Assembly: GCA_031423895.1 (NCBI GenBank)
Contig: JANPGK010000005.1
Span: 58,683-122,682 of the forward strand
Source of the DNA: Hyphomicrobiales bacterium
Lineage (GTDB): Bacteria > Pseudomonadota > Alphaproteobacteria > Rhizobiales > JANPGK01
Direction: 5' to 3'
Length of the DNA stretch: 64,000 nt
Of this stretch, positions 52,462 through 54,170 are shown one piece after another; the stretch's first letter is position 1; each line of letters starts with the position of its first letter. The translations under genes were made by a program, and so were the position numbers. The notes beneath the pieces were generated by a model. It searched no databases and had not been told where the DNA came from. It saw only the letters and a list, made by a program, of their open reading frames with translations.

Positions 52462-52550
52462 CGTAATTGCGAGCGAAGTGTAACGCAGCGCGGCAATCCA
52501 GAGATTTAAGAACTGGATTGCTTCCCCCTTCACACGTCGTCGCAATGACG
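52462..52550. repeat. CGTC-tagged palindromic element, family B, copy 2
   Basis: CGTAATTGCGAG...GCGGCAATCCAGA..TT.AAGAACTGGATTGC...TCGCAATGACG, similar to 4192. Confidence 0.82.
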
Positions 52551-52596: not shown

Positions 52597-52977
52597 TTAT
52601 TGGAGCGACATGAGGGATTTAAGTGTGGTTGCCATACCCGTAAATACTTTTCCGACGATACCCAAATTAGCATCATTCAAATGAAATCGCGATAATCTTT
52701 GAGTAAATTCGATTTTCTCAAGCATGAGCTTAGCGGATTCTCCATGAACTGGATCATTAGCCAGTGCACGCACCGCCTTTTTGGCTTTGGCGTGCTTCGC
52801 ATCGAGGTCTTTCTTAAATGTAGAATGATCTAAGCCACCATCAATAGTAGATAAGGCGCTATCATACATTTCACTTCTACCGCTTTTAGCAGCCGATATG
52901 AACTGCTCAAAATTAGGTTTGGTGGAAGCTTGAGTGCCTGCACCTGAAGCGGCTCCGACCATATTGACGTTGGACAT
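52597..52977 (-). CDS. Hypothetical 126-aa protein, T3SS inner-rod (SctI)-like C-terminus
   Basis: GGGAG RBS before ATG at 52977; ends LGIVGKVFTGMATTLKSLMSLQ. Gene is well supported, function is a guess. Confidence 0.5.
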   Translation of the reverse strand: MSNVNMVGAASGAGTQASTKPNFEQFISAAKSGRSEMYDSALSTIDGGLDHSTFKKDLDAKHAKAKKAVRALANDPVHGESAKLMLEKIEFTQRLSRFHLNDANLGIVGKVFTGMATTLKSLMSLQ

Positions 52978-53145
52978 TACATTTACTCTCCCAATCTTAG
53001 TACTATATACACAGAAAAATAAAGATTTCGTCAATCATACATGCGGATTAGACCAAAGGATGAGAGTATAATTGTTGAAATTATGTTGACACTTTAGGAA
53101 CCAAATGTTAGATATTATCCATCGACAGGCTCTAAGGAGGACACT

Positions 53146-53349
53146 ATGAGAAACAAACCAAACAAACTCTACGCACAAGAAAGTGACGCTGCAGGCATTG
53201 ATGGCGCTAACAAAGCTGCCAATTCAGCCGCTTCCCGTAAGGAAATGTCAAGAATTAATGATATCGCTGCTGCATTTGATGTTGCTGCAACAATTCAAAA
53301 CAACATTGCTTCAGGCAACAAGCAGGCTGCTTCTAAAATCGGCCAGTAA
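53146..53349 (+). CDS. Hypothetical 67-aa Ala/Asn-rich protein, Hrp pilin/needle-like
   Basis: TTGACA-17-TAGATA promoter, AAGGAGG RBS, own terminator. Gene is well supported, function is a guess. Confidence 0.55.
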   Translation: MRNKPNKLYAQESDAAGIDGANKAANSAASRKEMSRINDIAAAFDVAATIQNNIASGNKQAASKIGQ

Positions 53350-53370
53350 GTAAGCATCTTAGTAAGATTA

Positions 53371-53409
53371 TTAGCGCCGCAAGTCATTATTTGTGGCGCT
53401 AATTTTTTT
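53371..53409 (+). terminator. Rho-independent terminator after the 67-aa gene
   Basis: TTAGCGCCGCAA-N8-TTGTGGCGCTAA followed by T7. Confidence 0.8.
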
Positions 53410-53495
53410 AAAATTATTTATGTATATTTGATATGCTACAAAAAAATATTGATAAGATTTTTATATATGCACTTTAATGCGTTTTGCGTAAAAAT

Positions 53496-53993
53496 TTAAG
53501 TGCCAATTCCTCTAGAAAATCCTCGAATTCGGTAATCGGGATGAGTGCGTTTTATATCATCAAGTATTTGTGATGTATTACGATTATCTTGTTGATCTGA
53601 GTTATATTCATCTTCTGGATAATTTGCTTGTACATATTCTAATACTGAAACTTCCCCATCGTGATTAGAATCTAAGTCATAACCAGATACTTGTGATAAA
53701 TATTCATTGAGCTCATCTGGCATGTAATCATAATGCGCCGGCATTTGCGCCATCGCCCTCTGCCGCAATATCTCATTTTGCTGCGCCATTTGGGCTTCAG
53801 TCATTTTCGATTGCGTTTTTGCTGGTGTTTTTGTTTCAGCGGTCGTGTCCACTGGCGTTGCGGTTTCAGTGGGTTTCACATCACCCTTGGTTTCATTCAC
53901 CGCCCCATCAAACTCCTGCGCTTTCACGGCAGGGGCTTCCTGCGCGGGGGCGGGTGTCGTTTGAGTGGTGTTTTTTACATCTGGCGGTGCCAT
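53496..53993 (-). CDS. Orphan with Thr/Pro/Ala-rich N-terminus and one EF-hand-like loop
   Basis: GAGG RBS, TTGAAA-17-TAATAT upstream, DLDSNHDGEVSVLE. Confidence 0.62.
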   Translation of the reverse strand: MAPPDVKNTTQTTPAPAQEAPAVKAQEFDGAVNETKGDVKPTETATPVDTTAETKTPAKTQSKMTEAQMAQQNEILRQRAMAQMPAHYDYMPDELNEYLSQVSGYDLDSNHDGEVSVLEYVQANYPEDEYNSDQQDNRNTSQILDDIKRTHPDYRIRGFSRGIGT

Positions 53994-54170
53994 GGCGGCC
54001 TCAATATATAAAAATTGCGTACGAAATCGCACAATGATTATTGAATATTACAATAAATTTGCACTCGTTTCAACTCATAAAGTGTTTGTTTACCTTATCC
54101 TTAAGTATAATACAAAAAACGACGCCCGAAAGCGCCGTTCATATTAAGTGTGTACTTTATACGCGCACTC

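What the first reader, a model, noticed from the sequence alone, without database searches (positions are those of the whole stretch)
52597..53409. Divergent pair resembling T3SS inner rod and Hrp-type pilin, away from any T3SS cluster
Seen: a 126-aa gene ending GKVFTGMATTLKSLMSLQ and a 67-aa Ala/Asn-rich gene ending NIASGNKQAASKIGQ. Neither has a signal peptide or TM segment. The small gene has its own promoter, an AAGGAGG RBS and a terminator, as expected for an abundant subunit. Recalled, not verified: SctI/HrpB2 rods end in a K..(V/L)..L(M/L)..Q helix, and HrpA/HrpY/NopA pilins are 60-110 aa with C-terminal SG/AG-x-AA-x2-I motifs. Inference: stand-alone or alternative filament subunits of a divergent injectisome, which would fit the orphan effector-like genes.
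Basis: inference. Interest (0 to 1): 0.7.

Follow-up and report, generated by a model that had tools for sequence, protein, structure and literature searches.

The report
Stand-alone injectisome rod and needle genes
Two small back-to-back genes with only one known relative pair anywhere probably encode the inner-rod and needle subunits of this bacterium's scattered type III secretion machine, so diverged that the standard family models miss them.

Summary
A 126-aa gene (52597-52977, minus strand) and a 67-aa gene (53146-53349, plus strand) diverge from a 168-bp AT-rich spacer. The small gene has an AAGGAGG ribosome-binding site and a strong terminator.

Pfam, NCBIfam, PHROGs, PDB sequence search and Foldseek find nothing. 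However, the genome does carry a non-flagellar, rhizobial-type (Rhc-like) T3SS, split over at least four other contigs, with no recognised rod or needle gene.

An exhaustive HMMER scan found one homologue of the 126-aa protein (41% identity). It is again paired divergently with a homologue of the 67-aa protein (42%), across a conserved spacer. The pair is therefore a conserved two-gene module.

I scored the last ~22 residues of all 11,769 ORFs against the C-termini of genuine SctI proteins. The 126-aa protein ranks first with two independent reference sets; hhalign gives P = 0.011-0.07, always end to end. The 67-aa protein ranks first against SctF needle tails, but only with a one-residue offset, and hhalign finds nothing. 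It does not resemble NopA.

Best reading (about 50%): these are highly diverged SctI and SctF-like subunits.

The parts
52597..52977 (-). 126-aa protein (p126), proposed SctI-like inner-rod/adaptor subunit. It has a polar, disordered N-terminus (residues 1-22), an NFEQFI motif, a helical body and a conserved extreme C-terminus DANLGIVGKVFTGMATTLKSLMSLQ.
   Evidence: ORF. AF2 model: disordered 1-22 plus five helices, the last two (79-97, 102-124) forming a C-terminal helix-turn-helix; pLDDT 66. One homologue, P0016, at 41% identity, E 2e-15. C-terminal tail ranks 1 of 11,769 ORFs against SctI tails. hhalign P 0.011-0.07. Collinear MAFFT alignment with SctI proteins.
52978..53145 (.). 168-bp AT-rich (34% GC) spacer with back-to-back promoter-like elements. 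These are: a -35 TTGACG for p126 (complement of 53029-53034) with TATATA near 53004-53009; a -35 TTGACA for p67 at 53086-53091; and, between them, an invariant 20-mer GATTAGACCAAAGGATGAGA (53046-53065) that may be a shared operator.
   Evidence: Sequence. Alignment with the second locus gives 79% identity over 94 nt and a 20-mer that is 100% identical, while the proteins share about 41%. The 20-mer is unique in the genome. The promoter scan did not call canonical sigma-70 sites here, so the promoter assignment is inference.
53134..53140 (+). AAGGAGG ribosome-binding site of p67
   Evidence: In the second locus the equivalent position reads AAGGAGAAA.
53146..53349 (+). 67-aa protein (p67), proposed SctF-like needle subunit. 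It has a polar N-terminus and one long predicted helix, with a conserved C-terminus INDIAAAFDVAATIQNNIASGNKQAASKIGQ.
   Evidence: ORF. AF2 model: a single helix 8-66, pLDDT 84. The homologous partner gene in L110 shares 42% identity. Tail ranks 1 of 11,769 ORFs against SctF tails at W = 20, 24 and 30 when a one-residue offset is allowed. Shuffles reach the observed score in 1-35 of 20,000. MAFFT places it on the SctF C-terminal helix. Against: hhalign P 0.35.
53370..53413 (+). Intrinsic terminator of p67 (15-pair stem followed by a T-run)

Best explanation
The two genes encode the missing early substrates of this bacterium's dispersed, rhizobial-type (Rhc-like) non-flagellar type III secretion system.

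p126 would be a highly diverged SctI (inner rod/adaptor). By analogy with solved needle complexes, about six copies would form one helical turn on top of the SctR/S/T export gate through their C-terminal helix-turn-helix. The N-terminal loop would reach the secretin-side connector, which here would be the RhcC1-like protein.

p67 would be a short SctF-like needle subunit that polymerises on the SctI turn through its conserved C-terminal helix.

Both lack Sec signals and would be exported by the T3SS itself through their polar, unstructured N-termini. They are transcribed divergently from one spacer that carries a conserved central site. The strong RBS and terminator of p67 fit a subunit needed in far more copies than the rod.

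Shown here: the genes, their conservation as a pair, the presence of the T3SS core, and the C-terminal resemblances. Inferred: secretion, assembly, stoichiometry and regulation.
For: 1. The genome has an NF-T3SS core, scored by NCBIfam: SctQ, SctR, SctU, SctJ, SctD, SctV and SctN. SctS and SctT were seen by paralogy and BLAST. An RhcC1-like protein sits next to sctD, and SctD carries the Pfam Y4YQ_C domain. The genes lie on four other contigs. No rod or needle gene is found elsewhere.

2. The pair is a conserved module. The only homologue of p126 among 1.84 billion representative proteins (P0016, 41% identity, E 2e-15) is again divergently paired with a 76-aa homologue of p67 (42%). The extreme C-termini are the best-conserved parts, and the spacer is conserved too.

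3. p126 against SctI. I built an ungapped profile, anchored at the C-terminus, from the last 18-26 residues of 8 Pfam-verified SctI proteins from unrelated bacteria.
- p126 ranks 1 of 11,769 ORFs (z about 4.5; score 11.6 against a next best of 6.9). This holds when the two most similar references are removed.
- It ranks first again with an independent set of 13 proteins encoded directly upstream of sctJ in genomes of the same order.
- Composition-preserving shuffles reach the observed score in 2-5 of 20,000.
- hhalign aligns the last 22-23 residues end to end with P 0.011, 0.015 and 0.071.
- MAFFT also aligns the N-terminal NFEQFI motif with RFSELM / RFEQSL of SctI proteins.
- In the reverse direction, the p126-family tail profile retrieves SctI and flagellar hook (axial-protein) tails.

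4. p67 against SctF. It ranks 1 of 11,769 ORFs at W = 20, 24 and 30 with a one-residue C-terminal offset (19.0 against a next best of 10.6 at W = 30). Shuffles reach this in 1-35 of 20,000; its homologue reaches it in 11-12 of 20,000. Such an offset occurs among true family members: the Archangium SctI has one. MAFFT independently gives the same register.

5. Cross-controls are negative: p67 against SctI tails and p126 against SctF tails both score far below zero.

6. The method recovers SctI proteins that Pfam misses, namely a Bradyrhizobium Rhc-type SctI and an HrpB2-like protein.

7. Sizes, the absence of TM or signal segments and the C-terminal helix-turn-helix of p126 fit the solved MxiI/PrgJ architecture (PMC10019453).
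Against: - No curated model (PF17001, PF09392, NCBIfam) matches either protein.
- A plain HMMER search with an SctI HMM ranks p126 only 62nd in its genome.
- Foldseek finds only generic helical bundles for p126 and nothing for p67. PDB sequence and profile searches find no T3SS protein.
- hhalign probabilities are low (0.8-3.9%), and hhalign finds nothing for p67 against SctF.
- The tail scores (11.6-14.8; 17-19) are below every verified family member in leave-one-out tests (17-35; 25-52).
- The anchored test and the one-residue offset were designed after I had seen the similarity.
- The p67-family profile does not retrieve true SctF proteins in reverse.
- p67 is shorter than the SctF proteins compared, lacks most of their N-terminal helix and is modelled as one continuous helix, not a hairpin.
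- The genes are not next to sctJ or any other sct gene.
- The conserved spacer motif is not found upstream of other sct operons.
- No dedicated T3SS secretin domain was found, so it is uncertain whether the apparatus extends outside the cell.
- Whether the second organism has a T3SS is unknown.
Confidence: 0.5

Rival explanations
1. The pair is a lineage-specific two-gene module with no link to type III secretion, for example small regulatory, stress or mobile-element proteins. On this view the C-terminal resemblances are chance or convergence between amphipathic, polar helices.
For: All standard sequence, profile and structure searches are negative. The pair is not linked to sct genes in either locus. 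In L110 it sits next to a hicBA toxin-antitoxin pair, which suggests a mobile or accessory context. The conserved spacer motif is unique in the genome and not shared with sct promoters. The tail scores lie below those of all verified family members.
Against: Two candidates named in advance each rank first of 11,769 ORFs against the matching family and score strongly negative against the other family. The SctI result was replicated with an independent reference set. hhalign repeatedly aligns exactly the last 22-23 residues. A second shared motif occurs near the N-terminus. The genome has a T3SS that otherwise lacks both parts.
Confidence: 0.22
2. p126 is an SctI-like axial protein, but p67 is not the needle. 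It would instead be a dedicated partner: a small chaperone or stabiliser of the rod (as Bcr4 is for BscI, or YscE/PscE for the needle) or another early substrate. The true filament subunit would then be elsewhere or absent.
For: Evidence for p67 is clearly weaker than for p126. hhalign finds nothing. The reverse profile does not retrieve SctF. p67 is 67 aa, modelled as a single helix and lacks the N-terminal SctF helix. A chaperone for an inner-rod protein has been described (PMC9603008). With no T3SS secretin domain found, the system may build no external needle, as proposed for Myxococcales systems (PMC3459982).
Against: The most conserved part of p67 is its extreme C-terminus, as in polymerising axial subunits. 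It is the best SctF-like tail in the genome, with a wide margin at W = 30. The strong RBS and terminator suggest high abundance. Bcr4 is 173 aa, much longer than p67, and I saw no similarity to it.
Confidence: 0.18
3. The two proteins are accessory axial or regulatory proteins of the flagellum rather than of the injectisome.
For: The genome also has a full flagellar set. The SctI tail profile, and the p126-family profile in reverse, also pick up flagellar hook (FlgE) C-termini. The motif is therefore the general axial-protein C-terminal motif.
Against: Neither protein matches any flagellar Pfam or NCBIfam family. The N-terminal ANNxAN-type rod motif is absent. Size and architecture fit SctI and SctF better, and the FEQ-type N-terminal motif is shared with proteins encoded upstream of sctJ, not with flagellar rods. 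No homologues were found in 400 genomes of the same order.
Confidence: 0.05
4. They are two more members of this genome's repertoire of more than 100 AT-rich orphan tail-anchored proteins (earlier findings on this genome).
For: Both genes are AT-rich (43.6% against 49% GC) and lie in an AT-rich islet among such genes. The ...LKSLMSLQ ending of p126 superficially resembles the start of some anchors, such as FKSLISLAVMAGG in the neighbouring 160-aa gene.
Against: Neither protein has a hydrophobic C-terminal segment: the 19-residue maximum is 1.09 and 0.74, against about 1.6-2.7 (15-residue window) for the anchored set. The C-terminus ending in SLQ is conserved in the homologue, so it is not a truncation. 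The nearby repeat does not touch the stop codon. Unlike the orphans, the pair has a homologous pair elsewhere.
Confidence: 0.03

Closest known systems
SctI inner-rod/adaptor proteins (YscI, PrgJ, MxiI, BscI, HrpB2; Pfam PF17001 T3SS_basalb_I)
   Same: Small size and no signal peptide. Disordered polar N-terminus and a C-terminal helix-turn-helix. The conserved extreme C-terminus follows the pattern hh-G/S-K-x-h-x5-6-T/S-x-h-x-x-L-h-x-x-Q/G-stop, in the same register to the stop codon. An N-terminal F-E/S-x-x-L/M motif is shared. A T3SS core is present in the genome.
   Different: Below detection by PF17001, NCBIfam and HMMER. A 7-residue insertion (NDANLGI) precedes the tail. The gene is not upstream of sctJ or inside any sct operon. 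It is transcribed from its own bidirectional promoter with the putative needle gene. Tail scores are lower than for any verified member.
Proteins encoded directly upstream of rhcJ/sctJ in Rhc-type clusters of the same order. From my own recollection, not checked in a paper, this is the nopB position in rhizobia.
   Same: Same C-terminal tail pattern, for example ...VGLMTKSTGAFTTSMNKLMSSA against ...LGIVGKVFTGMATTLKSLMSLQ. Same N-terminal motif, RFEQSL against NFEQFI. These proteins are also invisible to PF17001. The host T3SS is of the same Rhc type (SctD with Y4YQ_C, RhcC1-like protein, SctJ 42% identical to a Bradyrhizobium RhcJ).
   Different: Those proteins are 124-205 aa with long Ala/Pro-rich middles and always precede sctJ. 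p126 is 126 aa and unlinked. hhalign gives only P = 0.07.
SctF needle subunits (YscF, PrgI, MxiH type; Pfam PF09392)
   Same: Small helical protein without a signal peptide. The C-terminal ~30 residues align with the lumen-facing C-terminal helix (xT-h-x3-I-x4-K-x4-K-I-G). It is encoded next to the putative sctI and carries strong expression signals.
   Different: One extra C-terminal residue. 67-76 aa, against 77-89 aa for the SctF proteins compared here. Most of the N-terminal helix and the turn are missing. No PF09392 or hhalign match. The monomer is modelled as one continuous helix.
NopA / HrpY / HrpA pilins of plant-associated T3SSs
   Same: Similar length (NopA of a Bradyrhizobium MAG is about 63 aa), a polar N-terminus and a helical C-terminal half. 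NopA is the filament subunit of Rhc-type systems, the type found in this genome.
   Different: A NopA profile does not match p67 (hhalign probability 0.6%), and NopA tails rank p67 beyond 1000th. BLASTP against an HrpY-like protein gives E = 56. In Rhc clusters nopA lies upstream of sctD-sctV, but in this genome that position is empty.
Scattered NF-T3SS loci of Chlamydiales and Hamiltonella defensa (Abby and Rocha 2012, PMC3459982)
   Same: The T3SS core genes are spread over several loci in a small, probably host-associated genome.
   Different: Here the core is of the rhizobial type in an alphaproteobacterium. Even the rod and needle genes form their own two-gene unit, and no dedicated secretin domain (RhcC2) was found.

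Membership tests
SctI (T3SS inner rod; PF17001 / TIGR02497) | Significant match to the curated family profile | tested here: not met
   No Pfam or NCBIfam hit for p126 or P0016. A genome-wide PF17001 scan finds only a chance hit in an ABC-F protein. However, PF17001 also misses all Rhc-type, Hrp-type and chlamydial systems tested: it hit 8 of 30 genomes.
SctI (T3SS inner rod; PF17001 / TIGR02497) | Conserved C-terminal helix motif ending at the C-terminus | tested here: met
   Rank 1 of 11,769 ORFs with two independent reference sets. Shuffles reach the score in 2-5 of 20,000. hhalign end-to-end alignment, P 0.011-0.071. Scores are lower than for verified members.
SctI (T3SS inner rod; PF17001 / TIGR02497) | About 100-200 aa, no Sec signal or TM segment, disordered N-terminus, C-terminal helix-turn-helix | tested here: met
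   126 aa. Maximum KD19 of 1.09. AF2 model: residues 1-22 disordered; helices 79-97 and 102-124 at the C-terminus. Compared with the MxiI description in PMC10019453.
SctI (T3SS inner rod; PF17001 / TIGR02497) | Encoded in the T3SS cluster, typically directly upstream of sctJ | tested here: not met
   sctJ is on another contig. It is preceded by an L,D-transpeptidase gene and a response-regulator gene.
SctI (T3SS inner rod; PF17001 / TIGR02497) | Non-flagellar T3SS core present in the same genome | tested here: met
   SctQ, R, U, J, D, V and N scored by NCBIfam. They are distinct from the flagellar set.
SctI (T3SS inner rod; PF17001 / TIGR02497) | T3SS-dependent export and assembly as one turn on SctR/S/T | not testable with these tools
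SctF (needle subunit; PF09392) | Match to the curated profile or profile-profile similarity | tested here: not met
   No Pfam hit. No PF09392 hit anywhere in the genome, even at E <= 10. hhalign A5 against A3 gives P 0.35.
SctF (needle subunit; PF09392) | Conserved C-terminal helix ending at the C-terminus | tested here: inconclusive
   Rank 1 of 11,769 only when a one-residue offset is allowed. Shuffles reach the score in 1-35 of 20,000. MAFFT gives the same register. The reverse profile does not recover SctF. Scores are below true members.
SctF (needle subunit; PF09392) | Helix-turn-helix hairpin; the SctF proteins compared here are 77-89 aa | tested here: inconclusive
   67 aa (76 aa in the homologue). 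The AF2 monomer is one helix, 8-66. The alignment shows that most of the N-terminal helix is absent. A single-sequence monomer model cannot settle the polymer conformation.
NopA / Hrp-type pilins | Sequence or profile similarity to NopA or HrpY | tested here: not met
   hhalign probability 0.6%. No NopA-like ORF in the genome. NopA tails rank p67 beyond 1000. BLASTP against an HrpY-like protein gives E 56.
This genome's orphan tail-anchored proteins | C-terminal hydrophobic anchor followed by a short polar tail | tested here: not met
   Tail hydropathy is 1.32 (15-residue window) for p126, against about 1.6-2.7 in the set, and p67 has no hydrophobic segment. The C-terminus is conserved in the homologue.

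The most novel reading that the evidence does not exclude
This reduced-genome alphaproteobacterium, the sole representative of its family, may run a fully dispersed Rhc-type injectisome. It would keep the RhcC1 adaptor but have no RhcC2 secretin of its own, borrowing the Tad pilus secretin CpaC, the lineage from which RhcC2 was originally recruited. It would build a minimal needle from a 67-aa SctF-like subunit instead of a NopA pilus. The rod-needle pair would be an autonomous, separately regulated two-gene cassette. Its substrates would include the genome's more than 100 AT-rich orphan proteins.
Probability: 0.1. Interest if true: 0.8.

Novelty: new member of a known kind. Interest (0 to 1): 0.45.

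Why it matters
If correct, this supplies the two missing structural parts of a T3SS in an unsampled alphaproteobacterial family. That makes it more likely that the dispersed system is functional and that the organism is host-associated.

It also exposes a practical blind spot. The curated SctI and SctF models missed these proteins. In my tests PF17001 missed the proteins encoded upstream of sctJ in a Bradyrhizobium Rhc-type cluster and in a Burkholderia HrpB2-type cluster. A simple test anchored at the C-terminus recovered them. T3SSs scored as lacking a rod or needle may therefore simply have diverged subunits.

The rod-needle pair with its own conserved bidirectional promoter is an unusual arrangement. 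It would be useful for studying how early-substrate expression is balanced.

Tried and rejected
- Pfam, NCBIfam and PHROGs scans of both proteins and their homologues: nothing meaningful.
- PDB sequence and profile searches: only low-complexity or chance hits.
- AF2 plus Foldseek against PDB: generic helical bundles for p126, no hits for p67.
- Word-index homology searches: each protein found only itself.
- 40 relatives and 400 genomes of the same order: no homologues.
- Two metagenome scans, one by alignment-derived patterns and one by a custom degenerate pattern for the C-terminal motif: nothing.
- tblastn of p67 against plasmids: nothing.
- Paralogue search in the genome: none.
- Idea that p126 is a tail-anchored orphan truncated by the nearby GC-rich repeat: rejected. 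The repeat lies at 52462-52531, 66 nt from the stop, and the C-terminus is conserved in the homologue.
- NopA identity for p67: rejected.
- Plain HMMER search with SctI HMMs: did not single out p126.
- Search for a regulatory motif shared with the upstream regions of other sct operons: none seen, and the conserved 20-mer is unique in the genome.
- Rfam scan of the locus: nothing near gathering scores.
- The second-best SctF-like tail in the genome is an antisense ORF inside bcp and therefore spurious.
- Checking the assembly that holds L110 for a T3SS: the record is not held.
Full report
**What is there.** The window is C5:58683-122682 of a 1.9-Mb, 39-contig draft genome of about 49% GC. GTDB holds no other member of its family.

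- A 126-aa ORF, p126, occupies 52597-52977 on the minus strand.
- A 67-aa ORF, p67, occupies 53146-53349 on the plus strand.
- They diverge from a 168-bp spacer of 34% GC.
- p67 has AAGGAGG 5 nt upstream of its ATG and a 15-pair hairpin with a T-run at 53370-53413.
- A perfect TTGACA lies at 53086-53091, but the consensus scan did not call a canonical promoter there.
- Neither protein has a hydrophobic segment: the maximum 19-residue hydropathy is 1.09 and 0.74.

**Standard searches are negative.**
- Pfam, NCBIfam and PHROGs give nothing for either protein.
- PDB sequence search gives nothing relevant.
- AlphaFold2 models p126 as a disordered N-terminus (residues 1-22) followed by five helices (pLDDT 66). 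It models p67 as one long helix, 8-66 (pLDDT 84).
- Foldseek returns only generic helical bundles for p126 (E > 0.5) and nothing for p67.
- There are no paralogues in the genome.
- There are no homologues in 40 relatives or in 400 genomes of the same order.
- Two metagenome scans found nothing.

**The genome does have a non-flagellar T3SS, and it is dispersed.** There are two FHIPEP proteins and two FliI/SctN-type ATPases. One set is flagellar:
- fliF-fliG-fliN-flbD-flhA and flgE/K/L on C4;
- fliQ-fliR-flhB on C9;
- fliI next to ctrA on C8.

The other set scores best as an injectisome by NCBIfam:
- SctQ and SctR pass the curated cut-offs; SctU scores best as SctU but lies below it; SctS and SctT complete the run on C39:5388-9600.
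- SctJ (over the cut-off) at C27:50938-51843. It sits beside a tuf copy at the contig end and is preceded by an L,D-transpeptidase gene and a response-regulator gene.
- SctD and SctV at C9:33301-38320.
- SctN plus a FliJ/SctO-like gene at C20:3431-5406.

The system is of the rhizobial (Rhc) type, on three grounds:
- SctD carries the Pfam Y4YQ_C domain.
- The 280-aa protein divergent from sctD resembles a Bradyrhizobium RhcC1 (BLASTP E 2e-8).
- The best SctJ match is a Bradyrhizobium RhcJ at 42% identity.

The only secretin domain in the genome is CpaC, inside a complete Tad locus. It is 37% identical to the Bradyrhizobium RhcC2. This fits the published view that RhcC2 was recruited from Tad loci while RhcC1 is the remnant N-terminal domain (PMC3459982). 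That paper also documents scattered NF-T3SSs in Chlamydiales and Hamiltonella.

No needle or rod gene is detectable anywhere in the genome with PF09392, PF17001 or a NopA profile.

**The pair is a conserved module.** An exhaustive HMMER scan of 1.84 billion representative proteins found exactly one relative of p126. This is P0016: 123 aa, 41% identity, E 2e-15. It lies on a 1,442-bp contig of assembly GCA_029981595.1 (L110).

- There it is again transcribed divergently from a 76-aa gene whose product is 42% identical to p67.
- In both families the extreme C-terminus is the best-conserved part: DANLxIxGKVxTGxATTxKxLxSLQ-stop and INDxAxA...ATxxNNIAxxNKQxASxIG-x-stop.
- The spacer core is more conserved than the proteins: 79% over 94 nt, with an identical 20-mer GATTAGACCAAAGGATGAGA between two conserved -35-like boxes.
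- That 20-mer is unique in the genome and absent from other sct upstream regions.
- In L110 the pair is followed by hicBA. The window genome has hicBA homologues of 43-52% identity 27 kb away. This suggests two moderately distant organisms rather than unusually fast evolution of the pair.

**Test against real rod proteins.**
- I fetched eight SctI proteins from unrelated bacteria with PF17001 (alignment A4).
- By eye, their last ~20 residues share a pattern with p126 in the same register to the stop codon. Examples: Belnapia LLGKVTGKATSTLDTFLKNQ and Achromobacter VVGKGITKSTQNLDALVRMN, against p126 IVGKVFTGMATTLKSLMSLQ.
- The published C-terminal peptide of Bordetella BscI reads KAIGRATQNVDTLARMS (PMC9603008).
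- hhalign of A4 against the p126 pair aligns exactly the last 22 residues, P = 0.011. An 11-sequence version gives P = 0.015.
- A plain HMMER search does not single p126 out: it ranks 62nd.

I therefore scored the last W residues of every ORF of at least 50 aa in the genome (11,769 ORFs). The score is ungapped and anchored at the C-terminus, against the average BLOSUM62 profile of the SctI tails.

- p126 ranks first at W = 18, 22 and 26 (score 11.6 against a next best of 6.9; z about 4.5). It ranks second at W = 30 and 36.
- It stays first when the two most similar references are removed.
- Shuffling its own tail reaches the score in 2 of 20,000 trials; for P0016 the figure is 5 of 20,000.
- True SctI proteins score 17-35 in leave-one-out tests, so p126 is more diverged than any of them.
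- Applied to 15,583 ORFs from 80 SctV/FlhA loci, the same profile recovers true SctI proteins and flagellar hook C-termini. These belong to the same axial-protein superfamily.
- It also recovers two proteins that Pfam misses: the gene upstream of rhcJ in a Bradyrhizobium cluster and an HrpB2-like protein ending VQTLMKNQ.

**Independent replication.**
- I collected 13 proteins encoded directly upstream of sctJ in genomes of the same order (alignment A10).
- Their tails, for example VGLMTKSTGAFTTSMNKLMSSA, again place p126 first of 11,769 at W = 20, 22 and 26 (z 4.5; shuffles 3-5 of 20,000). Here hhalign gives P = 0.071, again end to end.
- These proteins also share an N-terminal motif with p126: RFEQSL / QFERAL against NFEQFI. 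MAFFT aligns this motif without guidance.

**Test of p67.**
- A Bradyrhizobium NopA profile does not match it: hhalign probability 0.6%, and NopA tails rank it beyond 1000th. An HrpY-like protein gives BLASTP E = 56.
- Against five PF09392-verified SctF proteins, p67 is unremarkable when anchored exactly at the C-terminus.
- It ranks first of 11,769 at W = 20, 24 and 30 when one extra C-terminal residue is allowed (...QKIG-stop against ...SKIGQ-stop). At W = 30 the score is 19.0 against a next best of 10.6.
- Shuffles reach the score in 1-35 of 20,000. Its homologue reaches it in 11-12 of 20,000.
- MAFFT independently chooses the same register. It also shows that p67 lacks most of the N-terminal SctF helix.
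- A one-residue extension also occurs in a true SctI, from Archangium.
- Against this: hhalign finds nothing (P 0.35). The p67-family profile does not retrieve SctF in reverse. True SctF proteins score 25-52.
- The runner-up SctF-like tail in the genome is an antisense ORF inside bcp.
- Cross-controls (p67 against SctI tails, p126 against SctF tails) are strongly negative.

**Interpretation.**
Each turns out to be the top ORF in its genome for the matching family and not for the other.
- They form a conserved pair.
- The genome has a T3SS lacking exactly these two parts.

I therefore favour p126 as a diverged SctI and p67 as a short SctF-like needle subunit.

By analogy with solved needle complexes, about six SctI copies form one turn on SctR/T through a C-terminal helix-turn-helix, and the needle then continues the helix (PMC10019453). 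The last two helices of p126 (79-97, 102-124) fit that hairpin.

The caveats are real:
- The anchored test and the offset were devised after I had seen the similarity.
- All standard tools are negative or marginal.
- The p67 evidence is clearly weaker.
- It is unknown whether the second organism has a T3SS.
- No expression data could be obtained.

I put the joint reading at about 0.5. The SctI assignment alone is somewhat higher, about 0.65, and the SctF assignment lower.

**Relation to earlier notes on this genome.** Earlier agents described more than 100 AT-rich orphan tail-anchored proteins. The pair sits among such genes, but it lacks the hydrophobic anchor and, unlike them, has homologues elsewhere. 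It is not part of that set.

**Novelty.** This is a new, very diverged member pair of known families (SctI, SctF-like) in an unusual arrangement: an autonomous two-gene unit of a fully dispersed Rhc-type T3SS. It is of moderate interest, mainly as the missing parts of a new lineage's injectisome and as a demonstration that curated rod and needle models under-detect.

Noticed in passing
outside the window: G000 C39:5388-9600, C27:50938-51843, C9:32359-38320, C20:3431-5406: The genome's non-flagellar T3SS is split into at least four loci: sctQRSTU; sctJ alone; rhcC1-like/sctD ... sctV; and sctN plus an sctO-like gene. It is of the rhizobial (Rhc) type. Each locus is embedded among housekeeping genes.
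   Followed up: partly
outside the window: G000 C13:46958-48463: The only secretin-domain protein in the genome is CpaC, inside a complete Tad pilus locus. It is 37% identical to a Bradyrhizobium RhcC2. No dedicated RhcC2 was found although an RhcC1-like gene is kept. Either the T3SS lacks an outer-membrane channel, or it shares CpaC, or the gene lies in an assembly gap.
   Followed up: partly
window 53496-54032 (-): The next gene in the same AT-rich islet is an orphan of up to 178 aa. It has a long Thr/Pro/Ala/Glu-rich, probably disordered N-terminal half and an EF-hand-like loop (DLDSNHDGEVSVLEY). There is no Pfam or PHROGs hit. It looks effector-like but was not examined further, and it is absent from the L110 locus.
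   Followed up: no
window 52462-52531: A GC-rich ~70-nt repeat lies between the DUF882 peptidase gene and the p126 stop codon. At least 12 further copies (77-97% identity) are scattered over the genome. It does not overlap either coding region.
   Followed up: partly
window 53046-53065: The 20-mer GATTAGACCAAAGGATGAGA in the p126/p67 spacer is identical in the only other known locus, although the flanking proteins share about 41% identity. It is unique in this genome. It is probably a binding site for an unknown regulator.
   Followed up: partly
L110:997-1440 and G000 C5:138496-138929: In the second organism the pair is followed by a hicB/hicA-like toxin-antitoxin pair. The window genome has hicBA homologues (43-52% identity) on the same contig, about 27 kb from the pair.
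   Followed up: no
L036:4323-4805(-), L086:7571-8047(-), L130-L157 (genes upstream of sctJ): Pfam PF17001 did not hit the Bradyrhizobium MAG, the Pseudoxanthomonas genome or the chlamydial genomes, and it did not report the HrpB2-like protein of Burkholderia alba (L086). Yet the genes directly upstream of sctJ carry a clear SctI-type C-terminal tail and an N-terminal RFE..L motif. A scan anchored at the C-terminus recovers them. From memory, this is the nopB position in rhizobia.
   Followed up: partly
outside the window: G000 C27:48813-50885: A REC-Fis-type response regulator gene and an L,D-transpeptidase (YkuD) gene lie immediately upstream of the isolated sctJ. An N-acetylmuramoyl-L-alanine amidase-like gene precedes sctN on C20. 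These may be peptidoglycan-remodelling and regulatory partners of the T3SS.
   Followed up: no
L036:8121-8854: The Bradyrhizobium MAG used as reference carries two tandem NopA-like genes upstream of y4yQ(sctD)-rhcV. The corresponding position in the window genome holds the divergent rhcC1-like gene instead.
   Followed up: no
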